From positions 5,733-69,732 of the forward strand of contig CAMHMN010000003.1 of the NCBI GenBank assembly GCA_946186245.1: 64,000 nucleotides of DNA, given 5' to 3'. A program made the position numbers and the translations under genes. The notes under the pieces are model-generated. The model was not told the origin of the DNA. It saw only the letters and a program-made list of their open reading frames with translations, and ran no database searches. The stretch is from an uncultured Clostridia bacterium (GTDB lineage: Bacteria > Bacillota > Clostridia > Oscillospirales > Acutalibacteraceae). Position 1 is the stretch's first letter; each line of letters starts with the position of its first letter. Below, piece by piece: positions 1 to 53,578 of this stretch.

Positions 1-338
1 CCGCATTTCGGACAGTATTTCTCGTTGTCGATCATCAGACAGGTCGTCCAGCTGTAGCCGCATGCCCGGCAGATATGCGTCCTCTGCACCGGTCTCGGGC
101 CGTAAATGCACTGCATGATCTGCTGGTAGGGTTCAAAGGCTCCTTCACCCGCTTTGGTACCGCATTTGCGGCAATATCTGTCCTCCTCGCTCAAAGGCGC
201 GTGACAATGGCCGCAGCGTGTCGGATCGGGTGTGACCCAGCCATCATTCTTGGCGCCGCAGCTCGGACATTTCTCGTCCCTGAAATGAAGCTCCGCTCCG
301 CAGCGTCGGCATCTTCCCTTCGGATTGATTTGACTCAT
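1..338 (-). CDS. Cys-rich multi-zinc-ribbon protein, N-terminal 112 aa only (gene runs off the left edge)
   Basis: Not in the ORF track because there is no stop in the window. Hand translation of the minus strand from ATG 338-336 gives MSQINPKGRCRRCGAELHFRDEKCPSCGAKNDGWVTPDPTRCGHCHAPLSEEDRYCRKCGTKAGEGAFEPYQQIMQCIYGPRPVQRTHICRACGYSWTTCLMIDNEKYCPKCG... It has six CxxC pairs, equivalent to three zinc ribbons. GGAGA lies 7 nt upstream. The start overlaps the stop of the radical SAM gene as ATGA. Confidence 0.7.
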   Translation of the reverse strand, partial: MSQINPKGRCRRCGAELHFRDEKCPSCGAKNDGWVTPDPTRCGHCHAPLSEEDRYCRKCGTKAGEGAFEPYQQIMQCIYGPRPVQRTHICRACGYSWTTCLMIDNEKYCPKC

Positions 339-1450
339 TGTGATTTCTCCTTTCGCATGACAGATGTGATACAGAACATTGGCTGATGATGATCAAAATC
401 CCATGTGTGTGTGGAATCTCCGGCGCAGAATTCTCTCTCGGCGCATTCCCGGCACTTTTGGCAGAGCTGCGTGCGGTCGCTGCGGAATGCCTTGAATCCG
501 TCCCGCCACACCGCGGAAAAGCTGTCGCGCGCAATATTGCCCTGAATGAGTTCGGGACGGCGTTCAATGTCGAGGCAGGAATAAATATCCCCGTTGCAGA
601 GAATGCTGCCGACGTAGATTCCCGAGCCACAGATGAAATAATTGTCCCGCAGCTCATGCTCGTACTCGTAGGAAAGATAATGGGAACAGCCGAAGCAGAC
701 GTCCATCGGCGTGTCCGCTGCATATCGCTTTTCCCTGATAAAATCCAGCAGGCCGCGCATCTGTTCATCCGAGAGCAGCAGTTCCGGATGCTGAAGCGCC
801 CTGCCGATCGGCTCGATATTGATGACCCGCCATGATTCAACGCCCGTTTCGCACATCAGTCGGTAAAGCCTATCCATCTCACTGAAATTGCCGCTGTGAA
901 TCACCGAGGTGATCTGCACGCCGATACCCGCCGAATGAAGGCATTCCACAGCGCGCAGCACCTTCCGGAAGCTGCCCTTCACCCTGCGGAGGGCGTCGTG
1001 CGTTTCCTCCAGTCCGTCCAGGCTCAGCGTGACGGAACCAAGGCCCAGAGCCGCCATTTTTTCCGCGCGGTTCCGGTCGATCAGGGTGCCGTTGGTGGTG
1101 ATTCCCCACGGGAAGCCGAGCGAACGGATGCTTCCGGCGATGGCAAAGAAATCCGGGTGAAGCAGCGGTTCGCCGCCGGTCAGACAAATCATCACGCTGC
1201 GCGGCTCGAAATTCCCGGCGACTTCTTCCAGCGTGCGCAGAAGCAGACCGGTGTCCAGGATTCTCCCCTCTCCCCCGCCGCAGCTGCTTCCGCAGTGCAG
1301 ACAGGCAAGATTGCAGCGGTCGGTCAGTTCCACAAAGAGATAGGTCAGACGGGGATGAGCGCGCAGATAATTCCTGTACTCCGCGAGCCTGCGCATATCG
1401 CGGGTTTTGATTTGCATTTTGCTCCGTTCCAATTTCGGTTTCACCTTCAC
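335..1450 (-). CDS. Radical SAM / SPASM-domain enzyme (peptide or protein maturase-like)
   Basis: CNLACLHC (CX3CX2C) sits near the N-terminus, followed by the TGGEPLL SAM-binding motif. The C-terminal Cys cluster (CGSGIYVGSILCNGDIYSC ... CQKCRECAEREFCAG) is typical of SPASM auxiliary clusters. The track start is GTG 1450. ATG 1417 (MQIKTRD) has the better RBS (ACGGAGCAAAATG). Confidence 0.85.
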   Translation of the reverse strand: MKVKPKLERSKMQIKTRDMRRLAEYRNYLRAHPRLTYLFVELTDRCNLACLHCGSSCGGGEGRILDTGLLLRTLEEVAGNFEPRSVMICLTGGEPLLHPDFFAIAGSIRSLGFPWGITTNGTLIDRNRAEKMAALGLGSVTLSLDGLEETHDALRRVKGSFRKVLRAVECLHSAGIGVQITSVIHSGNFSEMDRLYRLMCETGVESWRVINIEPIGRALQHPELLLSDEQMRGLLDFIREKRYAADTPMDVCFGCSHYLSYEYEHELRDNYFICGSGIYVGSILCNGDIYSCLDIERRPELIQGNIARDSFSAVWRDGFKAFRSDRTQLCQKCRECAEREFCAGDSTHTWDFDHHQPMFCITSVMRKEKSQ

Positions 1451-1472
1451 CCTTCAGCCTTCCACTTTCAGC

Positions 1473-2780
1473 CTAAACCAACCTCATCTCCCGCTTGCGT
1501 CTTCTGAGCGTGCGCATGACGTCCGCCGTTTCCAGCCCGGAAGGACAGACCGCGCTGCAGGCGCCGCAGCCTGTGCATTTTTCCGCGCCGAAGGAAGCCG
1601 CCTTGTCAATCTCTCCCTTTTCGTAGCACCGCATCGCCAGATAAACCGGCAGACCCATCGGGCAGACCGTGACGCACTTTCCGCATCGGGTACAGGTGGT
1701 CTTTTCGGGTCGCGGAAGGGAATGCATCACCGTGATGGCACGGGTACCCAGAGGAACGGGCGTGGATAAATCGGTGACGGTCACGCCGTTCATGGTGTCG
1801 CCGAATATCACGTAATTAGGCACTTTGTTCACGCCCACGAATCGCAGCACGTCCTCCAGCGTCGTGCCGTTGACCACAATGGCGTTGCAGGGATGCTTAA
1901 TGCAATCCCCCGAGACGGTGACGATTCCGTTTGTCTGAGGAATGCCCCTGAGAAGGGCATTTGCGGCAGCCCGCAGCGCCTGCACCCCTATCGGCAGAAA
2001 GTTCCCCTTGGGATAATACTGCCGCTTGAATTTGGATATCAGAGGGAAGCCGCCGCTCATCCGCACCGGCTTGACGAAGCCCATGATGTCCGAACCCGGA
2101 CGCATATGCACTTCGTCGCAGTCGAAAATCGCCAGCTTGGCGCTGCCGCCGTCCAGCGCTTTCAGCACAATGGTGATGCCGTCGGTCACTTCCGAGGCGA
2201 ATTCGCTCACCGTTTTGAGGGCGCTGCTCACGTAGGGACTGTCGTCCAGGGCGATGGCAGCCATTTCCCTGATATCCCTCTCACGCGCGCGAAGAATTTT
2301 GGTAATCAGCGGCTTTCCGTCAAATTCGTCGATGATTCCCGCCTGATGAATGGTGCGCAGCACGCCGTCAATCGTCATGGTGCTGAGGCTGTGCTGCACG
2401 GTGGGCAGCGGAGGAACGGTACTGTCCGGGCGTATGACAGCGCAGAACAGGTTGCCCAGAAGCTCGTGCTCCATGGGGACAATATCCTCCACAAAGCCCG
2501 ATACGGGCGACATGATCCACGACGGCCCCATCTTCTCACCGGGATGGGGCATGGTGCGTGCCAGCGGGGAAAACCTCGCGCAGCGGTCGCCCTTCTGCGG
2601 AACCGGATACATGATCTCCCCTCCGGGGTCATAAAGCGGCACATGCACACAGTCCCTGATGGGTACGGAGCAGAGAGGAGCGGAAAATGCAGGCTCCTTG
2701 TGCTGTTCCAGATCGACATGTCTGCCGGTATTGAAAAAATTGATGTTCTTTGTCCCCAATCCATTATTCACCTCTTGCAT
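1473..2780 (-). CDS. RnfC-like protein with C-terminal 2x[4Fe-4S] ferredoxin domain (degenerate nucleotide-binding region)
   Basis: The N-terminus has an RnfC_N-like pattern (FNTGRHVDLEQHK ... SPVSGFVEDI). An SLBB-like segment follows, then CTRCGKCVTVCP and CTGCGACSAVCP. The usual GMGGAGFPT and NGAECEP motifs of RnfC appear to be replaced. It lies 22 nt upstream of the radical SAM gene on the same strand. Confidence 0.65.
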   Translation of the reverse strand: MQEVNNGLGTKNINFFNTGRHVDLEQHKEPAFSAPLCSVPIRDCVHVPLYDPGGEIMYPVPQKGDRCARFSPLARTMPHPGEKMGPSWIMSPVSGFVEDIVPMEHELLGNLFCAVIRPDSTVPPLPTVQHSLSTMTIDGVLRTIHQAGIIDEFDGKPLITKILRARERDIREMAAIALDDSPYVSSALKTVSEFASEVTDGITIVLKALDGGSAKLAIFDCDEVHMRPGSDIMGFVKPVRMSGGFPLISKFKRQYYPKGNFLPIGVQALRAAANALLRGIPQTNGIVTVSGDCIKHPCNAIVVNGTTLEDVLRFVGVNKVPNYVIFGDTMNGVTVTDLSTPVPLGTRAITVMHSLPRPEKTTCTRCGKCVTVCPMGLPVYLAMRCYEKGEIDKAASFGAEKCTGCGACSAVCPSGLETADVMRTLRRRKREMRLV

Positions 2781-2848
2781 ATTTTGCGTTACCGGGCTTT
2801 AATTCAATATATAAATACTATAATACCGCTTCGGAGGTAAGTCAAGAC

Positions 2849-3292
2849 ATGACGATAAAATTGCTGCCCGGAAATCCCTGCAAATCCGCGCTGGTATTCT
2901 GTTCAGAGGATGAATTTTTCCATATGGGGATAACCCCCGATGATCTGACCCTGCAAAACAGAAAAACCCGGCTGCTTCTCGCAAGAATCTTCGACCTGCT
3001 GCGGGAATTTGCCGGACTTCGCCGCGAAGGGTATTTTGTTGCCGTCACCTGCCGTCCGGTGAATAAAGGAGGCGGAAGGTTTTACATCCAATTCACCGAT
3101 AAACCCAGCGGCAGGCTTTTTGAATTCCGTGAAGCCGACGACCTGCTCGACGCAATCAGTCAGCTGCAGGGGAAATTGAATTGGTCGCATGTCAATATCT
3201 GCCATTCGGACGGTGAATACAGACTCTACATACCTGCCGGGCTGCATCTCTCAAAAAGCGCCGCTGCCATACTGAGTGAATATTCGGTGTGA
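2849..3292 (+). CDS. Short MecA-like adaptor protein (tentative)
   Basis: ATG 2849 follows GGAGG (2833-2837). The track ORF from 2750 is an upstream extension without an RBS. The layout resembles short clostridial MecA: an N-terminal beta segment, then ...FEFREADDLLDAI...GEYRLYI...LSEY at the C-terminus. This is a call from memory only. Confidence 0.45.
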   Translation: MTIKLLPGNPCKSALVFCSEDEFFHMGITPDDLTLQNRKTRLLLARIFDLLREFAGLRREGYFVAVTCRPVNKGGGRFYIQFTDKPSGRLFEFREADDLLDAISQLQGKLNWSHVNICHSDGEYRLYIPAGLHLSKSAAAILSEYSV

Positions 3293-26149: not shown

Positions 26150-26152
26150 GAT

Positions 26153-26268
<116 letters not shown>

Positions 26269-43629: not shown

Positions 43630-46005
43630 TTACTTTTTTTGCAGATCTATTGTCTTTTCGAGCGCGTTGGCAAGGGCGCGGGCGATATTCTTGGGATTGT
43701 CGATGATCCATCTGGCGGAATCGGCGTTGTCGTGATATTCCACCTCCGCCAGGAGGCTGATCATGCCGTAGTAGGCGGGATCCCTTACCTCGGCGTAACC
43801 CACATTTTCAAATCCCTTCATGCCGTCCACGGTCTTGCTGCCGACGGTTGGCATAAAGGGGGATATCTTGCCCATTTCGTTTGCCATATTCTCACCCAGC
43901 AGCCGGCTCTGCTCACAGCCTGGGAAGTAATAACCCACTGCGCCGTACATCTTCTTGGAGGAATGAGCGTTGCTGTGAATGGCGAGATAGACGTCGGCGT
44001 CCTTGTTGTAAGCGTCGGTGGGACGGCAGTTGAAATTGATCTTCATGCTGACCGGCGGCATATAGACCACGCAGAGATATTCTTCCTCGAGTATCTTTTT
44101 CAGCTCGTTTCCGACGCGGTACATCTGTTCCCCTTCGGTGGTGGAGCCGGCTGCGTATTCATTCTTTGTCTGGCGTGAGGGCGAAAGGTAGATGATCGGC
44201 ACACCGCCCTCCTTGAAGCTGCGGCTGGGTATGGTGACGCATTCATTCCGGTATACGGAAGTCTTGGAGCGGGCAATCCATGCGCTCTTGCCGTTCAGAT
44301 TGAAGCGATACCATGTGGCGTCGCCGGAATCGCAGTCCCATTCCAGCGCAAGGTATCTGGCGCCTGCTTTGACGGTGCCGACACTGGAATAATTCGTGCC
44401 CGGGCCGGAATACACCGTCGTGCCGTTGCTTTTGACGGTGAAGGTGCGGTTGATGTAGATCTGATCGCTTTTTTTGGTTATCATGGCAAATGTAACCGAG
44501 CTGTCGACAGCTTCTCCGTTTTCATCCGTCACGCGGCAGTAGACCTGCATGGCGTGCCATGTGCAGTCGGCTTCCTCGGTCACCTTGGGCTCGGTGCCTT
44601 CCTGCCACAGTGTCCAGTCGGACTCGCCGGCCTTTTTGCGGTACCACTGATAACGCAGCCCGCTGCCGGAAGCGGTAATCGAAAACGAAGCCGTCTCGCC
44701 CGAATGAACCGTGACTTGCGCCGGCTGTGTGATGATTTTAACGGCGGGGGTGACGATGATCCTGGCCGACCTGGAATTGACGCTCGCGCCGGATTCATCC
44801 GACACACGGCAATAGACCTGCATGCCGTTCATTGACAGCTCGGCTCTGGCGGACAGCACGGATCCGGTCTGTCCGTACCATCTTTCCCATGATTTCGTAT
44901 CCGGCATGCGGCGGAACCACTGATAAGAGCATTTGCCCGTACCGCGGGCAGTAACGGATGTTTTCAGGCTCGTGCCGGACAGAACATTGGTGCTTACAGG
45001 TTGAACGGTAACGGAAAGCGGCTGGCTGATTCTGACGATCGCCGTATCGGAAACCAACTGCGCACCCGAAGCATCGGTGAGCTTGCAGTACACCTCCATC
45101 ATGTTCCATGAGGAATCGGCCTGTGCCGATATCATCGGCGAAGTCTGACTTGTCCAGACCGACCAGTCATTCGCACCGGCTTTTTTATAGTACCACTGAT
45201 AGGTGATTTCGCCGGTTCCCTTCGCCGACAGGAATATTTCGGGAACCTGACCCGCCTTTACCATCACGCCTTCCGGCTGTGTCTGGATGGAAAGCGGCTG
45301 CCTGACCGTTACCACGGCAGTTTCCGACAGGGCCGTGCCGCCGGCTTCGTCAGTGATCACGCACCATACGCGCATCAGGTTGCAGGTTTCATCGGCAATT
45401 GCCGACAGGCTGGGGGAAGTATTTCCGCTCCAGGCGGTTCCCTGGTTCATATCCGCCTTGCGGAAAAACCACTGGTAGTGCAGACTGCCGCTGCCCTGTG
45501 CCGACACGGAAAACGCCATTTTCTCGCCCGGTTTTACGGTGATATTCTTCGGCTGCTTTTGCAGCACAATAGGCTTTGCCAATCTGACAACCGCCGAATT
45601 GGACGAAACGGTGCTGCCGGAAGCGTCTGTCACCCGGCAATAGACCTTCATCATATCCCATGTGGAATCCGCCGTATCGGTGATGGAAGCCGTCGTATGT
45701 CCGCTCCAGACCTGCCATTTTCTGTTGCCTTGCTTGCGGCAATACCACTGATATTTCAGCTCCGATCCGGTCGCTTCCACGCTGAAGGACGCCCTGTTGC
45801 CTTCCTTGACGATGACGTCCGACGGATGGGATGTGATGGCAAGCGTCGCGGTCTCCGCGGGTGCGGCGTTGACCTTGCTTTCCCCCGCATAAACCTCCGC
45901 GCGTCCTCCTGCGGGTGAAATAAAGTATCCGGCCGCAAACGCAAGAGTCAACGCAATGGCGATCGCTTTTTTTGCCGACAAACGAATATGATCGTAGTAA
46001 CGCAT
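43630..46005 (-). CDS. N-acetylmuramoyl-L-alanine amidase (Amidase_3) with five Ig-like repeats and an SH3b-like domain
   Basis: Signal/TM segment, then five repeats of about 90 aa each carrying (Y/F)QW(Y/F)..K......W..W ... M.VYC.VTD. An SH3b-like segment (WYRFNLNGKSAWIAR) follows. Catalytic motifs are ADVYLAIHSNA and LLAEVEYHDN. ATG 46005 is preferred. The track TTG 46113 start runs through the amidase relic. Confidence 0.85.
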   Translation of the reverse strand: MRYYDHIRLSAKKAIAIALTLAFAAGYFISPAGGRAEVYAGESKVNAAPAETATLAITSHPSDVIVKEGNRASFSVEATGSELKYQWYCRKQGNRKWQVWSGHTTASITDTADSTWDMMKVYCRVTDASGSTVSSNSAVVRLAKPIVLQKQPKNITVKPGEKMAFSVSAQGSGSLHYQWFFRKADMNQGTAWSGNTSPSLSAIADETCNLMRVWCVITDEAGGTALSETAVVTVRQPLSIQTQPEGVMVKAGQVPEIFLSAKGTGEITYQWYYKKAGANDWSVWTSQTSPMISAQADSSWNMMEVYCKLTDASGAQLVSDTAIVRISQPLSVTVQPVSTNVLSGTSLKTSVTARGTGKCSYQWFRRMPDTKSWERWYGQTGSVLSARAELSMNGMQVYCRVSDESGASVNSRSARIIVTPAVKIITQPAQVTVHSGETASFSITASGSGLRYQWYRKKAGESDWTLWQEGTEPKVTEEADCTWHAMQVYCRVTDENGEAVDSSVTFAMITKKSDQIYINRTFTVKSNGTTVYSGPGTNYSSVGTVKAGARYLALEWDCDSGDATWYRFNLNGKSAWIARSKTSVYRNECVTIPSRSFKEGGVPIIYLSPSRQTKNEYAAGSTTEGEQMYRVGNELKKILEEEYLCVVYMPPVSMKINFNCRPTDAYNKDADVYLAIHSNAHSSKKMYGAVGYYFPGCEQSRLLGENMANEMGKISPFMPTVGSKTVDGMKGFENVGYAEVRDPAYYGMISLLAEVEYHDNADSARWIIDNPKNIARALANALEKTIDLQKK

Positions 46006-46063
46006 TGATTCTGCCGCCTTTCTTTTTTTATGACTCAAAACTGTGTGAATGGATTGACTGTGA

Positions 46064-46240
46064 TCAAAGAAGGATTGGTTCTGCCTGCCTACGGTATTCC
46101 TTCGCGTTGGCAAGGGCGCGGGCTATCTTTTTGGGGCATTGTGGGCGATTCGTCTGGCGGAAGGCCTATCACGCCGCTGAAAGCGACCGCGACAGAGCTG
46201 ACAGATATCATGACGGATGTCCGCAAAAACAGCACACCGA
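46064..46240 (-). pseudogene. Decayed 3-prime relic of a third Amidase_3 paralog
   Basis: 46103-46123 (CGCGTTGGCAAGGGCGCGGGC) is identical to 43663-43683 at the 3-prime end of the intact gene. Flanking sequence aligns at roughly 70 percent with indels that break the frame (..ARALANA.. retained; ..DSARWI.. region frameshifted). It has its own stop at 46064-46066. Confidence 0.5.
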
Positions 46241-51256: not shown

Positions 51257-53578
51257 TTATTTTTTCTTTTGCAGACCGAAGGTCTTTTCCAGCGAATTGG
51301 CAAGGGCGCGCGCTATTTTGTCGGTGTTGTTGATGATCCACTTGGCGGAATCCTTGTTGTCGTGATATTCGACCTCCGCGAGCACGCCGACCATTCCGTA
51401 ATAGGTGGGGTCGCGGACTTCACCGTAGCCGGTGCCGCCGAACGCCGACATGCCTTCTCTGAGCTGATTTTTGACCGTGGGCTTTTTGATGCTGATCTTT
51501 TTCATCTCGCTGACGATGTTCTGACTGAGCACCTTGCCCTGATTGCAGCTGGGAGAATAATAGCCGATGGCGCCGTAAACCGCTTTGGAAGAAATCGCGT
51601 TGCTGTGGATGGCGAGATAGACATCCGCCTCTCTGATATAAGCATCATACGCGCGGTTTTTCAGGCCAAGATGAAGCGAAGTGGGAGGAATGTAGGTCAT
51701 GCAGTAGTATTCCTCCTCCAGGATCTTCTTGAGAGCCTTGCCCACGCGGTACATCTGCGCCTGTTCGGTTGTGTTGCCATAGGCAAACTTATTGTCCGGC
51801 TGTTTGGAGGGCGAAATGTATATGATCGGAATGCCGCCGTCATTGAATTTGCGGTCGGGAATGGTGGTGTATTTGTCTTTGACGGTAACGCTGGTGCGGG
51901 GAACCCAGACGTTTTTGCCGTTGTACTTGAATCTGTACCATGTGGTATCCTTTCCGTCGGCTGCCCATTCCAGCGCTTCAAATGATTTTTTGGCGTTGAT
52001 CTTCGCCACGACGCTGTACTTTGTTCCCACGCCGGAATACACCTTGGTGTAGTTCTTGCTGATGGTAATGGTGCGTTTGAAGTAACGCTTTGAACCCTGC
52101 TTGGTTATCATGGCATAGACCGTGTCGCTTTTCAGCGTATTGTTTTTGCTGTCGGTCACCTTGCAGTACACCTGCATGCCGTTCCATGTGCAATCGGCTT
52201 TCGCGCTCATTTCCGGGGAGGTCATTCCGCTCCAGAGCGTCCAGTCGCTCTTGCCCGCCTTTTTGTAGTACCACTGATAGCTCAGGGCATTCGCCGAGTA
52301 GGCCTTGACCTTGAATGTCCCGGAATCACCGACATGCAGCGTCACATCCTCCGGCTGTCTGGTGATTCTCAGCTTGCCGGTGAGCAGCGCCGTGGCGGAT
52401 TCGGAATTTTTGCTCCTGTCGAGGGCGTCCGTGATCTTGCAGTACACCTGCATGCCGTCCCAGGTGGAATCGGACGTTCCCGAAGCCTTGGCCGAAGTGT
52501 ATCCCTCCCAGAGCGTCCAGTCGGTTGCGCCTTCTTTTCTGTAATACCACTGGTATTTCAGATTTCCCGAACCCTGCGCCTTGACGGTGAAGGAGGTCGT
52601 TTTGCCGGCCTGTGATACGGCGTCCGTCGGCTGCTCGAGAATGACCAGCGGCTCGTCAATGATGACCGTTGCCGCATTGGAATCAATGCTGCCCGACAGG
52701 TCGGAAACCTTGCACCGGACCTGCATCATCTTCCATGACTCATCGGAGGTTGCCGTGACGGAGGCGGTTGTCTGTCCGTTCCAGACCGACCAGTCCGATT
52801 CGCCCTGCTTCTTGCAGTACCACTGATAACTCATTTCCCCGCTGCCGTAAGCAACCACGCTGAAGGTGGCAGACTTGTTCAGCTTAACGACGACGTCTTG
52901 GGGATGGGTTTCGATGGAAAGCGGCTGATCCACCGTTACCACGGCGGTATTGGAATATTTGCTCCCGTTGGAATCGGCGACCTTGCAGCGGACCTGCATC
53001 AGATTCCACGACGGTTCGATGCCTGCCGTCGCGGTGGCTGCGGTCTGTCCCTTCCAGGCCGACCAGGCGGAAGCGTTGAGCTTTTTGATATACCACTGGT
53101 ACTTGATCTTGCCCTTGCCCTGCGCCTTGACCGTAAACGAAGCCGACTCGCCGACCTTTCCGGTAAGGCTCTGGGGATGACCCTTGATGGACAGCGGCTG
53201 ATCGACTGTCACTGTCACGGTCTTTGAATAAAGGCTTTTTGATTTGTCGGACACCTTGCAGCGGACCTGCATCATGTTCCAGGACGCATCAACCCTGCCG
53301 GAAGCAGAGGAATAAATACGTCCCTTCCAGGCCGTCCAGCCGGAGTCGCCGACTTTTTTGAAGTACCACTGGTACTTCACCGTCCCGTTTCCGGTGGCTT
53401 TGATGGTGAATTTCACCGTGTTGCCGGGTTTGGCGGTAACGTTTTTCGGCTGGGCGGTAACAGAGAGTGAAGCAGCGTAAACGATTCTTGTCCCGTCCGG
53501 ACTGAAGACTGCGTACGCCAGGACGAACGAGAGCGCGATCAGCAGAGCTGCGACTTTTTTATAGCCCGAGAAATTCAT
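51257..53578 (-). CDS. N-acetylmuramoyl-L-alanine amidase (Amidase_3) with five Ig-like repeats and SH3b-like domain, paralog of 43630-46005
   Basis: Same architecture as the first amidase: five YQWY repeats, WYRFKYNGKNVWVPR, ADVYLAIHSNA and VLAEVEYHDN, with AAAGGACGG RBS. Confidence 0.85.
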   Translation of the reverse strand: MNFSGYKKVAALLIALSFVLAYAVFSPDGTRIVYAASLSVTAQPKNVTAKPGNTVKFTIKATGNGTVKYQWYFKKVGDSGWTAWKGRIYSSASGRVDASWNMMQVRCKVSDKSKSLYSKTVTVTVDQPLSIKGHPQSLTGKVGESASFTVKAQGKGKIKYQWYIKKLNASAWSAWKGQTAATATAGIEPSWNLMQVRCKVADSNGSKYSNTAVVTVDQPLSIETHPQDVVVKLNKSATFSVVAYGSGEMSYQWYCKKQGESDWSVWNGQTTASVTATSDESWKMMQVRCKVSDLSGSIDSNAATVIIDEPLVILEQPTDAVSQAGKTTSFTVKAQGSGNLKYQWYYRKEGATDWTLWEGYTSAKASGTSDSTWDGMQVYCKITDALDRSKNSESATALLTGKLRITRQPEDVTLHVGDSGTFKVKAYSANALSYQWYYKKAGKSDWTLWSGMTSPEMSAKADCTWNGMQVYCKVTDSKNNTLKSDTVYAMITKQGSKRYFKRTITISKNYTKVYSGVGTKYSVVAKINAKKSFEALEWAADGKDTTWYRFKYNGKNVWVPRTSVTVKDKYTTIPDRKFNDGGIPIIYISPSKQPDNKFAYGNTTEQAQMYRVGKALKKILEEEYYCMTYIPPTSLHLGLKNRAYDAYIREADVYLAIHSNAISSKAVYGAIGYYSPSCNQGKVLSQNIVSEMKKISIKKPTVKNQLREGMSAFGGTGYGEVRDPTYYGMVGVLAEVEYHDNKDSAKWIINNTDKIARALANSLEKTFGLQKKK

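What the first reader, a model, noticed from the sequence alone, without database searches (positions are those of the whole stretch)
1..2850. Coupled operon: degenerate RnfC-like ferredoxin, SPASM radical-SAM enzyme and a Cys-rich multi-zinc-ribbon protein
Three minus-strand genes are packed with a 22-nt gap and then a 4-nt ATGA overlap.
- The first gene has RnfC architecture and two intact 4Fe-4S motifs, but appears to have lost the flavin/NADH motifs. That would fit a dedicated electron donor rather than part of an Rnf pump.
- The second gene is a SPASM-type radical SAM enzyme, the class that installs crosslinks or modifications on peptides and proteins.
- The third gene is invisible in the ORF track. 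It encodes a protein with at least six CxxC pairs and is translationally coupled to the maturase, which makes it a candidate substrate or partner.

I do not recognise this trio as a described system. The locus is cut by the window edge, so more genes may belong to it.
Basis: partly seen in the sequence, partly recalled or inferred. Interest (0 to 1): 0.72.

Follow-up and report, generated by a model that had tools for sequence, protein, structure and literature searches.

The report
Radical-SAM enzyme paired with Tyr-Gly zinc-ribbon protein
The conserved unit here is a two-gene cassette, not three genes: a radical-SAM/SPASM enzyme and a small zinc-ribbon protein that it probably modifies at an invariant Tyr-Gly loop, possibly by cutting tyramine out of the backbone as known "splicease" enzymes do.

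Summary
The three minus-strand genes exist as described. They are an RnfC-like protein (1473-2780), a radical-SAM/SPASM enzyme (335-1417/1450) and a zinc-ribbon protein that starts at 338 with an ATGA overlap. Sequence-identical public contigs show the third protein is 123 aa and that the operon ends there.

The trio is not a conserved system. It lies within about 2 kb of the rSAM only in relatives whose rSAM is at least 71% identical. One such relative keeps it in the same synteny while the rSAM pair sits 10 kb away.

The rSAM-zinc-ribbon pair is conserved across four phyla, in either gene order.

The enzyme is an outlying relative of TIGR04133, the uncharacterised "rSAM with lipoprotein" family. 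Partner proteins across this superfamily are unrelated in fold: zinc ribbons, TIGR04134 lipoproteins and acidic repeat proteins. They share one motif, x-Y-G-x-P, found in 60 of 80 loci against 1% of background ORFs.

That is the X-Y-G site used by splicease radical-SAM enzymes, which excise tyramine (-135 Da). I therefore read the zinc-ribbon protein as the substrate, modified at Ile78-Tyr79-Gly80. The chemistry is inferred, not shown. About 40% of zinc-ribbon homologues lack an adjacent rSAM.

The parts
335..1417 (-). Radical-SAM/SPASM enzyme, 360 aa from the ATG at 1417. The ORF extends to a GTG at 1450, giving 371 aa.
   Evidence: PF04055 scores 92 bits and PF13186 33 bits. The best NCBIfam hit is TIGR04133 at 273.8 bits, below its cutoff of 425. 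The AF2 model has pLDDT 83. Its nearest solved folds are SkfB, SuiB, PqqE, CteB and anSME, with TM up to 0.70.
1292..1315 (-). CX3CX2C motif (C35, C39, C42) that binds the SAM-cleaving [4Fe-4S] cluster
   Evidence: Read directly from the sequence. The motif is invariant in 18 homologues.
371..688 (-). SPASM region with seven conserved Cys (C244, C263, C281, C322, C325, C331, C349) plus invariant D334 and H337
   Evidence: Alignment A1 and the Cys map. C263-X12-G-X4-C281 is present. The canonical fourth Cys of CX2CX5CX3C is absent.
1..338 (-). Zinc-ribbon protein, first 112 of 123 codons. It starts inside the rSAM stop codon (ATGA). This is the proposed substrate.
   Evidence: Three CxxC...CxxC ribbons. 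The AF2 model has pLDDT 81.5 with no helices. It is adjacent to the rSAM in all Zn-clade loci examined.
90..110 (-). Loop C77-I78-Y79-G80-P81-R82-P83, the proposed modification site (x-Y-G-x-P)
   Evidence: C77, Y79, G80, P81 and P83 are invariant in 21 homologues. YG is present in 135 of 148 best representatives from a profile search that did not force the motif. This is the lowest-confidence block of the AF2 model (residues 71-80, pLDDT 66).
1473..2780 (-). Degenerate RnfC paralogue, 435 aa. It is co-transcribed here but is not part of the conserved cassette.
   Evidence: TIGR01945 scores 140 bits against a cutoff of 246, and there is no PF01512 hit. It aligns full-length to RnfC 7zc6_C and 8ahx_C.
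1545..1694 (-). Two intact CxxCxxCxxxC ferredoxin motifs of the RnfC-like protein (residues 363-373 and 402-412)
2193..2342 (-). Degenerate FMN/NADH-site region of the RnfC-like protein
   Evidence: Alignment to 7zc6_C shows GMGGATFP replaced by DEFDGKPL and ECEPYLTCD replaced by DDSPYVSSA.
2817..2845 (-). Promoter-like site TTGACT-17-TATAGT, 37 nt upstream of the RnfC-like ATG
   Evidence: This is a consensus match only.

Best explanation
**What the unit is.** The functional unit is a two-gene cassette made of the rSAM/SPASM enzyme and the zinc-ribbon protein. In this lineage the cassette sits downstream of an unrelated, degenerate RnfC paralogue, between that gene and a convergent gene encoding an SH3_3 protein. 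It is probably read from the RnfC paralogue's promoter.

**Proposed mechanism.**
1. The enzyme binds SAM at the C35/C39/C42 cluster and generates a 5'-deoxyadenosyl radical. It uses its SPASM auxiliary clusters for electron handling.
2. It acts on its translationally coupled neighbour at the exposed C-I-Y-G-P-x-P loop between the second and third zinc ribbons.
3. The most likely chemistry, by analogy with splicease rSAM/SPASM enzymes that act at X-Y-G sites, is excision of a tyramine equivalent from Tyr79. [quoted passage not shown] The predicted mass change is -135.06 Da.

**Shown versus inferred.** Shown: the domain content, the conserved pairing, and the shared motif across otherwise unrelated partner proteins. 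Inferred: that the motif is the target, the type of chemistry, and any downstream role (for example an electrophilic ketoamide as a protease-directed warhead or a structural switch).
For: **1. Pairing seen from the enzyme side.**
- Nine of nine genome loci with rSAM identity of at least 43% have a zinc-ribbon homologue directly adjacent. They come from Clostridia, an Anaerolineaceae MAG, two Planctomycetota MAGs and a Treponemataceae MAG. The partner lies downstream in some and upstream in others.
- Six further contigs at 57-100% rSAM identity show the same, with start/stop overlaps of 4-11 nt.
- Nothing else in the neighbourhood is conserved.

**2. A shared motif in unrelated partners.** Homologous rSAMs at 33-45% identity sit beside three other kinds of protein:
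- TIGR04134 lipoproteins with 'QACYGTPQD' at the lipobox Cys;
- acidic proteins with five to seven 'VYGPP' repeats (L014, L015, L017);
- other signal-peptide proteins.

Sixty of 80 loci have an adjacent same-strand ORF of at most 260 aa containing YG.P, against 19 of 1,899 (1%) background ORFs. In 119 sites, Y and G are invariant by selection, the -1 position varies (C/E/L/I/V/M), +1 is P/T/V/A, and +2 is P in 67%.

**3. Match to the splicease site.**
- Spliceases act at X-Y-G with variable X (PMC11414181, PMC10533398, PMC11626197).
- The natural PlpA splice tags 'PIRPLYGLPI' and 'AVAAGYGVVFP' have the same YG-x-P flavour (PMC10533398).
- Spliceases are rSAM/SPASM proteins. Most known systems are binary: the enzyme plus a substrate, with no Y protein.
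- TIGR04103, the PlpX family, is the second-best NCBIfam family for two of the three bona fide TIGR04133 members tested (L029, L077) and fourth for the third (L079).

**4. Exposure of the site.** The YG loop is the least confidently modelled, non-regular part of the zinc-ribbon model.

**5. Enzyme architecture.** The enzyme has no N-terminal RRE domain. Its fold superposes best on anSME, which modifies proteins at a short linear motif (TM 0.70).
Against: - No experiment or mass datum exists for this family.
- The enzyme is not a PlpX-family member: TIGR04103 scores 113 bits against a cutoff of 725. That is no better than its scores against MftC, NirJ or AhbD. The link to spliceases therefore rests on the substrate motif alone.
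- Richter et al. report that an activating helix, from a Y protein or from the leader, is needed by the spliceases they studied. The zinc-ribbon model has no helix, and no third small gene is conserved.
- From the substrate side the link is not obligate. In a metagenome scan seeded on the zinc-ribbon protein, 17-18 informative loci had an rSAM adjacent and 11 did not. Several of those 11 sit between argH and argC-argJ. YG is conserved in those too, so the motif could have an intrinsic structural role.
- In the zinc-ribbon family the conserved block is longer (C-[IV]-Y-G-P-x-P) than a minimal splice site.
- I could not read Scott et al. 2022 (Chem). I therefore cannot say whether this clade was already catalogued or tested there.
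Confidence: 0.5

Rival explanations
1. The substrate and site are the same, but the chemistry differs. The rSAM would install a crosslink or other change at the Tyr-Gly loop. Options include a Tyr-to-residue+2 cyclophane as in triceptide enzymes, a thioether from the conserved Cys77, a C-O or C-C crosslink, or epimerisation.
For: - SPASM enzymes nearest in fold (SkfB, CteB, SuiB, PqqE) all make crosslinks.
- Cys at -2 is conserved in 96 of 135 zinc-ribbon family members.
- The enzyme scores no better against the splicease model than against MftC or AhbD.
Against: - Cys is absent from the VYGPP-repeat partners and from many lipoprotein partners. A Cys-based link therefore cannot be the family-wide reaction.
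- Invariant Gly with variable flanking residues fits X-Y-G splicing better than Omega-X-X cyclophane motifs, where the third residue is the conserved one. This point is from my own knowledge and was not tested.
Confidence: 0.25
2. One reading: a three-gene system in which the degenerate RnfC-like ferredoxin is the dedicated electron donor that reduces the rSAM cluster.
For: - In the window the three genes are co-directional, with a 22/55-nt gap and no intervening promoter-like or terminator-like site.
- The protein keeps two [4Fe-4S] motifs and has lost its FMN/NADH site.
- It lies within about 2 kb of the rSAM in the window/L001, L084, L010 and L004.
Against: - The RnfC-like gene is absent from the neighbourhood in L005-L012 and L085-L087.
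- The contig carrying L085 and L090 keeps it in identical synteny without the cassette.
- It is convergent in L004 and is separated by an unrelated gene in L010.
- The degenerate RnfC family extends to about 40% identity in contexts with RnfD/RnfE-like genes or with no rSAM at all.
Confidence: 0.1
3. The zinc-ribbon protein is not a substrate. It would be an accessory factor (a metal or electron carrier, a scaffold or a regulator) for an rSAM that acts on something encoded elsewhere.
For: - Four-Cys ribbons can bind iron.
- About 40% of zinc-ribbon homologues occur without an adjacent rSAM. Some are in arginine-biosynthesis operons, and some are in-frame with ArgC or a PfkB kinase.
Against: - Sister-clade rSAMs pair with proteins that have no Cys clusters at all. 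What those partners share with the zinc-ribbon protein is only the YG motif.
- Accessory proteins of SPASM enzymes are normally PqqD-like RREs. None was detected.
Confidence: 0.1
4. The rSAM belongs to an already characterised family with a different substrate, such as anaerobic sulfatase maturase, heme/cofactor enzymes (AhbD, NirJ), MftC or PqqE.
For: - The best TM-score is to anSME (0.70).
- A Sulfatase-family gene lies directly upstream of the rSAM in L004.
- AhbD, NirJ and MftC models score 125-127 bits.
Against: - All those scores are far below the curated cutoffs (265-515 bits), and TIGR04133 scores twice as high.
- Sequence similarity to anSME is only E = 6e-5.
- The sulfatase neighbour is seen in one locus only.
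- No MftA/B, PqqA/D or heme genes are nearby.
Confidence: 0.03

Closest known systems
TIGR04133 / TIGR04134 'radical SAM-associated putative lipoprotein' pair (NCBIfam hypothetical equivalogs; function unknown)
   Same: - TIGR04133 is the best-scoring curated family for the enzyme, matching full length at 273.8 bits.
- Both are two-gene cassettes, with the partner directly adjacent on the same strand.
- The partner carries a Tyr-Gly-x-Pro motif.
   Different: - The window enzyme scores below the family cutoff of 425, whereas the three true members tested score 449-611 bits.
- The partner is a cytoplasmic three-zinc-ribbon protein with no signal peptide and no TIGR04134 hit, not a lipoprotein with a CarboxypepD_reg-like domain.
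- Hosts are Clostridia, Planctomycetota and Spirochaetota rather than Bacteroidota and Fibrobacter.
Spliceases and spliceotides (PlpX/PcpX/RhaX/RcsX; TIGR04103, IPR026482)
   Same: - The enzyme is rSAM plus SPASM.
- The substrate is encoded next door.
- The substrate has invariant Tyr-Gly preceded by a variable residue, and known splice tags also have Pro two residues after Gly.
- The architecture is binary, with no other conserved genes.
- The known enzymes have been shown to work on whole proteins (PMC11414181, PMC10533398, PMC11626197).
   Different: - The window enzyme is not a member of the PlpX family model (113 bits against a cutoff of 725).
- The substrate is a folded zinc-ribbon protein rather than a Nif11/NHLP-type leader-core peptide.
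- No leader or Y-protein helix is evident.
- No protease or exporter genes are present.
- The reaction is untested.
Anaerobic sulfatase-maturating enzyme (anSME)
   Same: - It is a SPASM rSAM without an RRE domain.
- It modifies a protein, not a peptide natural product, at a short Pro-containing linear motif.
- It gives the best structural superposition (TM 0.70).
   Different: - Sequence similarity is marginal (E = 6e-5).
- The target motif differs: C/S-x-P-x-R against x-Y-G-x-P.
- No sulfatase gene is present in the window's operon.
RnfC, the Rnf complex subunit C (for the first gene only)
   Same: Full-length homology and domain order: the RnfC_N barrel, a NuoF-like middle domain, SLBB, and a 2x[4Fe-4S] domain.
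   Different: - The FMN/NADH motifs are replaced and there is no PF01512 hit.
- It scores below the TIGR01945 cutoff.
- No rnfABDEG genes were found in the 64-kb window.
- It forms its own family, annotated only as '4Fe-4S dicluster domain-containing protein'.

Membership tests
Radical SAM superfamily | CX3CX2C cluster motif and a PF04055 score above its gathering threshold | tested here: met
   C35-X3-C39-X2-C42 is present. PF04055 scores 92.2 bits against a threshold of 29.5.
SPASM subgroup | A C-terminal PF13186 domain with about 7 Cys for two auxiliary clusters | tested here: met
   PF13186 scores 33.4 bits against 21.5. Seven Cys are invariant in 18 homologues, and CX12GX4C is present. 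The last Cys of the canonical CX2CX5CX3C is missing; D334 and H337 are invariant nearby.
TIGR04133 (rSAM_w_lipo) | Whole-protein score at or above the curated cutoff of 425 bits | tested here: not met
   The window enzyme scores 273.8 bits. Other Zn-clade enzymes score 261-279. The two Bacteroidales members tested (L029, L077) and the Fibrobacter member (L079) score 449-611.
TIGR04133 (rSAM_w_lipo) | An adjacent TIGR04134 lipoprotein | tested here: not met
   The zinc-ribbon partner has no TIGR04134 hit at E <= 1, and I saw no signal peptide or lipobox. Bacteroidales partners score 40-107 bits against a cutoff of 39.8.
Splicease (PlpX equivalog, TIGR04103) | Whole-protein score at or above 725 bits | tested here: not met
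   113 bits, ranking eighth among SPASM families.
Splicease systems in the broad sense (spliceotides) | An X-Y-G motif in the co-encoded substrate | tested here: met
   I78-Y79-G80 is present and YG is invariant in 21 homologues. The YG.P enrichment across the enzyme superfamily is 60/80 against 1%.
Splicease systems in the broad sense (spliceotides) | An activating helix supplied by a Y protein or by the substrate leader | tested here: inconclusive
   No conserved third gene was found, and the AF2 model of the substrate has no helix. The enzyme has a conserved N-terminal helix (residues 2-20) whose role is unknown. No complex model could be run.
Splicease systems in the broad sense (spliceotides) | [quoted passage not shown] | not testable with these tools
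   This needs co-expression and mass spectrometry.
Splicease systems in the broad sense (spliceotides) | Phylogenetic grouping with experimentally validated spliceases beyond type I | not tested
   Sequences of the 27 validated enzymes (Scott et al. 2022) were not available in the held library.
RnfC (TIGR01945) | A score at or above 245.95 bits, and a NuoF-like FMN/NADH domain (PF01512) | tested here: not met
   140.3 bits, no PF01512 hit, and the binding motifs are replaced.
RnfC (TIGR01945) | Encoded together with rnfABDEG | tested here: not met
   The neighbours are a 146/147-aa gene of unknown function and the rSAM. No RnfD/E-like hit was found in the window.
anSME | Family-level sequence match and a sulfatase substrate | tested here: not met
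   phmmer against 4k37 gives E = 6e-5. anSME is not among the top NCBIfam hits. There is no sulfatase gene in the window's operon.

The most novel reading that the evidence does not exclude
The whole TIGR04133-like superfamily would be a protein-backbone-editing system that excises tyramine at x-Y-G-x-P sites of ordinary cellular proteins. This includes the Zn-ribbon clade found here, the VYGPP-repeat clade, and the lipoprotein clade common in Bacteroidota, including gut-associated Bacteroidales MAGs. Ketoamide beta-residues would then be a widespread native protein modification rather than a feature of secreted RiPP natural products. Targets would include cytoplasmic zinc-ribbon proteins in Clostridia and the residue at or next to the lipidated Cys of Bacteroidales lipoproteins. 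The zinc-ribbon module found in arginine operons, and in-frame with enzymes, would be a further pool of targets.
Probability: 0.3. Interest if true: 0.8.

Novelty: new variant of a known kind. Interest (0 to 1): 0.55.

Why it matters
If the enzyme modifies the Tyr-Gly loop, this cassette gives a simple two-gene test case. One soluble 123-aa substrate and one 360-aa enzyme could assign a function to TIGR04133/TIGR04134, an uncharacterised radical-SAM superfamily that is common in rumen and other gut-associated Bacteroidales MAGs.

If the chemistry is tyramine splicing, backbone beta-amino-acid and ketoamide installation would extend from RiPP peptides to folded intracellular proteins and to lipoproteins. 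That would bear on protease inhibition, lipoprotein processing and protein engineering.

The work also corrects the locus model. The RnfC-like gene is a bystander from a separate family of degenerate RnfC paralogues in Clostridia, which lacks any specific annotation.

Tried and rejected
- **Exact look-up of the 371-aa rSAM.** It found nothing, because public gene callers use the ATG start. The RnfC-like protein did retrieve the contigs.
- **Other candidate precursors.** No other YG-bearing or Cys-rich small ORF lies near the locus, and there is no second zinc-ribbon/YGP protein in the 64 kb.
- **Other conserved neighbours.** No RRE/PqqD-like gene, peptidase or transporter is conserved next to the pair.
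- **Fold search of the zinc-ribbon model against the PDB.** Only generic small zinc-finger matches were found, none at E <= 0.001.
- **Defence-system models (PADLOC).** Only generic viperin-core similarity of the rSAM domain was found.
- **anSME, MftC, PqqE, AhbD and NirJ assignments.** All rejected on family scores.
- **Literature.** TIGR04133/04134 are not discussed in the held papers. There is no paper on YGPP plus radical SAM. Scott et al. 2022 (Chem) is not held.
- **Complex prediction.** An enzyme-substrate complex could not be predicted with the single-chain tool.
- **Word-index homologue search with the zinc-ribbon protein.** It gave only 20 hits and no names. The exhaustive profile search gave 470 clusters at E <= 1e-10.

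Full report
**1. Observation**

The window's left end carries three co-directional minus-strand genes.
- Gene 1 (1473..2780) encodes 435 aa.
- Gene 2 is an ORF from a GTG at 1450 to a stop at 335. The GTG lies 22 nt after gene 1's TAG.
- Public gene calls and the N-termini of homologues favour the ATG at 1417, giving 360 aa and a 55-nt gap.
- Gene 3 starts at 338 inside the ATGA that ends gene 2, with a GGAG upstream. It runs off the window after 112 codons.

Three ENA metagenome contigs encode the identical RnfC-like protein, and two of them extend past the window edge.
- Gene 3 is 123 aa in full.
- It is followed by an inverted repeat that I read by eye, which the terminator scan did not call. 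After that comes a convergent gene encoding an SH3_3 protein.

The operon is therefore complete at three genes. A promoter-like TTGACT-17-TATAGT lies 37 nt upstream of gene 1. The scan found no promoter-like or terminator-like site between the genes.

**2. The three proteins**

*Gene 1* aligns end to end with RnfC of the Clostridium tetanomorphum and Azotobacter vinelandii Rnf complexes (E about 1e-25).
- It keeps two CxxCxxCxxxC motifs.
- RnfC's 'GMGGATFP' and 'ECEPYLTCD' motifs read 'DEFDGKPL' and 'DDSPYVSSA' here.
- There is no PF01512 hit, and TIGR01945 scores 140 bits against a cutoff of 246.

*Gene 2* is a radical-SAM/SPASM enzyme.
- PF04055 scores 92 bits and PF13186 33 bits.
- The SAM-cluster motif is C35/C39/C42, and seven conserved SPASM cysteines follow.
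- Its best curated family is TIGR04133 'rSAM_w_lipo', matched full length at 273.8 bits, below the 425-bit cutoff.
- The next families score 113-127 bits: MftC, NirJ, AhbD, StsB and the PlpX family TIGR04103.
- The AF2 model (pLDDT 83) resembles peptide- and protein-modifying SPASM enzymes, with the best TM-score to anSME at 0.70. It has no N-terminal RRE domain.

*Gene 3* has three zinc ribbons.
- The AF2 model (pLDDT 81.5) contains only beta-hairpins.
- Its least confident block is residues 71-80.
- No solved structure resembles it beyond generic zinc fingers.

**3. What is conserved**

A scan of one genome per species with an rSAM alignment returned 80 loci.

*The rSAM-zinc-ribbon pair is conserved.*
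- A homologue of the zinc-ribbon protein lies directly beside the rSAM in all nine loci with at least 43% rSAM identity.
- These loci come from Clostridia, an Anaerolineaceae MAG, two Planctomycetota MAGs and a Treponemataceae MAG.
- The partner is downstream in some and upstream in others.
- Four further metagenome contigs at 57-84% identity show the same, with 4-11-nt overlaps.

*The RnfC-like gene is not conserved with the pair.*
- It is near the rSAM only in L084, L010 and L004, where rSAM identity is 71-84%.
- In L010 it is separated from the rSAM by a CAP/Ig gene. In L004 it is convergent.
- L085 and L090 are two views of one contig. There the RnfC-like gene keeps the pullulanase / 149-aa / SH3_3 / EPSP-synthase synteny of the window. 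The rSAM pair lies about 10 kb away on the other strand, next to an OGG glycosylase gene.
- The degenerate RnfC family extends to about 40% identity. All members lack PF01512 and are annotated only as '4Fe-4S dicluster domain-containing protein'.
- Distant members sit beside RnfD/RnfE-like genes (L089) or unrelated genes (L088).

The cassette is therefore two genes. In the window's lineage it lies between the RnfC paralogue and the gene encoding the SH3_3 protein.

**4. The key comparative result**

The zinc-ribbon family has an invariant core: C42-x2-C45 ... C56-x2-C59-G-T ... G64-x-G66 ... P70 ... C77-x-Y79-G80-P81-x-P83 ... C90-x2-C93 ... C109-x2-C112. The first ribbon is optional. In L087 the last ribbon is replaced by repeats, but 'VYGPPP' remains.

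More distant rSAM homologues (33-45% identity) sit beside quite different proteins.
- In the Bacteroidota loci, the partners tested are TIGR04134 lipoproteins (40 and 107 bits against a cutoff of 39.8). Many carry 'QACYGTPQD' at the lipobox cysteine, or 'EYG(T/A/V)P' a few residues later.
- In a Lachnospiraceae, a Coriobacteriales and an Anaeromyxobacteraceae MAG, the partners are acidic proteins with five to seven 'VYGPP'/'LYGP' repeats.

The statistics are as follows.
- An adjacent same-strand ORF of at most 260 aa containing YG.P occurs in 60 of 80 loci, against 19 of 1,899 background ORFs.
- Allowing variants such as YGPMP, 78 of 84 loci have a YG neighbour.
- The site profile is variable residue, Y, G, P/T/V/A, then P in 67% of sites.
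- The rSAMs next to lipoproteins pass the TIGR04133 cutoff (449-611 bits). The Zn clade scores 261-279 bits and the repeat clade 272-349 bits.

What the enzyme superfamily's partners share is a short Tyr-Gly motif, not a fold. This is the signature expected of an enzyme's target site.

**5. Mechanistic reading**

X-Y-G is the site at which splicease rSAM/SPASM enzymes (PlpX, PcpX, RhaX, RcsX, RasX) excise a tyramine equivalent (C8H9NO, -135.06 Da). [quoted passage not shown]

Several properties of known spliceases fit this locus.
- X is variable.
- Natural splice tags ('PIRPLYGLPI', 'AVAAGYGVVFP') have the same YG-x-P character.
- Most systems are binary.
- The reaction works on whole proteins.
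- According to a review (PMC10849128), such systems were mined precisely by looking for YG-rich neighbours of rSAM-SPASM genes. That work reported 939 predicted systems in 189 genera, of which 27 were confirmed.

I therefore propose that the window's enzyme acts on I78-Y79-G80 of the zinc-ribbon protein. The domain content, the pairing and the motif conservation are shown. The target site and the chemistry are inferred.

Weak extra support comes from NCBIfam scores. TIGR04103 is the second-best family for two of the three bona fide TIGR04133 members tested and fourth for the third.

**6. Evidence against, and limits**

- The enzyme is far below the PlpX family cutoff (113 against 725 bits) and is no closer to it than to MftC or AhbD.
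- The activating helix described for the spliceases studied by Richter et al. has no obvious counterpart in the substrate. The enzyme's conserved N-terminal helix is a candidate, but this is speculation.
- Seen from the substrate side, the association is partial.
  - A metagenome scan seeded on the zinc-ribbon protein gave 17-18 loci with an adjacent rSAM and 11 without.
  - Several of those 11 lie between argH and argC-argJ, or are in-frame with ArgC or a PfkB kinase.
- An exhaustive profile search found 470 clusters at E <= 1e-10.
  - Among the best 148 representatives, 135 have a ribbon followed by YG.
  - A few have 'YAP' instead.
  - Many carry the module inside larger proteins.
- The motif may therefore also have an intrinsic role. 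Alternatively, one enzyme may serve several substrates encoded elsewhere.
- I could not read Scott et al. 2022 or obtain validated splicease sequences. Whether this clade is already catalogued remains open.

**7. Verdict**

- The 'candidate substrate' idea is strengthened and made more specific.
- The 'trio with a dedicated RnfC-like donor' is not supported.
- The locus is best filed as a new variant within a known but uncharacterised kind, the TIGR04133-type rSAM/partner cassettes. It probably works like a splicease.
- Interest is moderate. The cassette offers a clean, testable entry into a widespread orphan enzyme family, but its chemistry is unproven and it may already be listed in a census I could not access.

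Noticed in passing
window 26152-26268 (-): A lone 5S rRNA gene (94.5 bits). There is no 16S/23S hit and no tRNA anywhere in the 64 kb. It is flanked by a 304-aa ORF with no Pfam hit and by a YkuD L,D-transpeptidase gene.
   Followed up: partly
window 43630-46113 (-) and 51257-53578 (-): Two large proteins (827 and 773 aa) combine Ig I-set/Ig_3 hits with an Amidase_3 cell-wall amidase domain; the 827-aa one also has an SH3_3 hit. A CAP/Ig protein with similar Ig hits separates the RnfC-like gene from the rSAM in L010.
   Followed up: no
L096, L098, L099, L105, L107, L108 (metagenome loci); L097: Zinc-ribbon/C[IV]YGPPP homologues without an adjacent rSAM sit between argH and argC-argJ. In L098 the module is in-frame with ArgC (424-aa ORF). 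In L097 it is in-frame with a PfkB carbohydrate kinase (429-aa ORF). It is unclear whether these are true fusions.
   Followed up: partly
window 2852-3292 (+): A divergent 146/147-aa gene with no Pfam, NCBIfam or PADLOC hit is conserved next to the degenerate RnfC-like gene in L001, L084 and L090. A 146-aa gene also occupies that position in L088. It may be the real partner of the RnfC paralogue.
   Followed up: partly
L089 6001-9987: In an Oscillospiraceae contig, a 41%-identical member of the degenerate RnfC family (no PF01512 hit) is followed, after a 1.1-kb uncalled gap, by RnfD-like and RnfE/A-like genes. This suggests that the flavin-less RnfC family may still work with Rnf membrane subunits in some genomes.
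   Followed up: no
L004 4438-5946 (+): A Sulfatase-family (PF00884) membrane protein lies directly upstream of the rSAM in one Ruminococcus MAG. It was seen in one locus only and is probably LtaS-like, but it is worth noting because anSME enzymes are SPASM rSAMs.
   Followed up: partly
representative proteins P0361, P0363, P0367: A small subclade of the zinc-ribbon family has C[IV]-Y-A-P instead of Y-G-P. It is a natural test of whether Gly is required.
   Followed up: no
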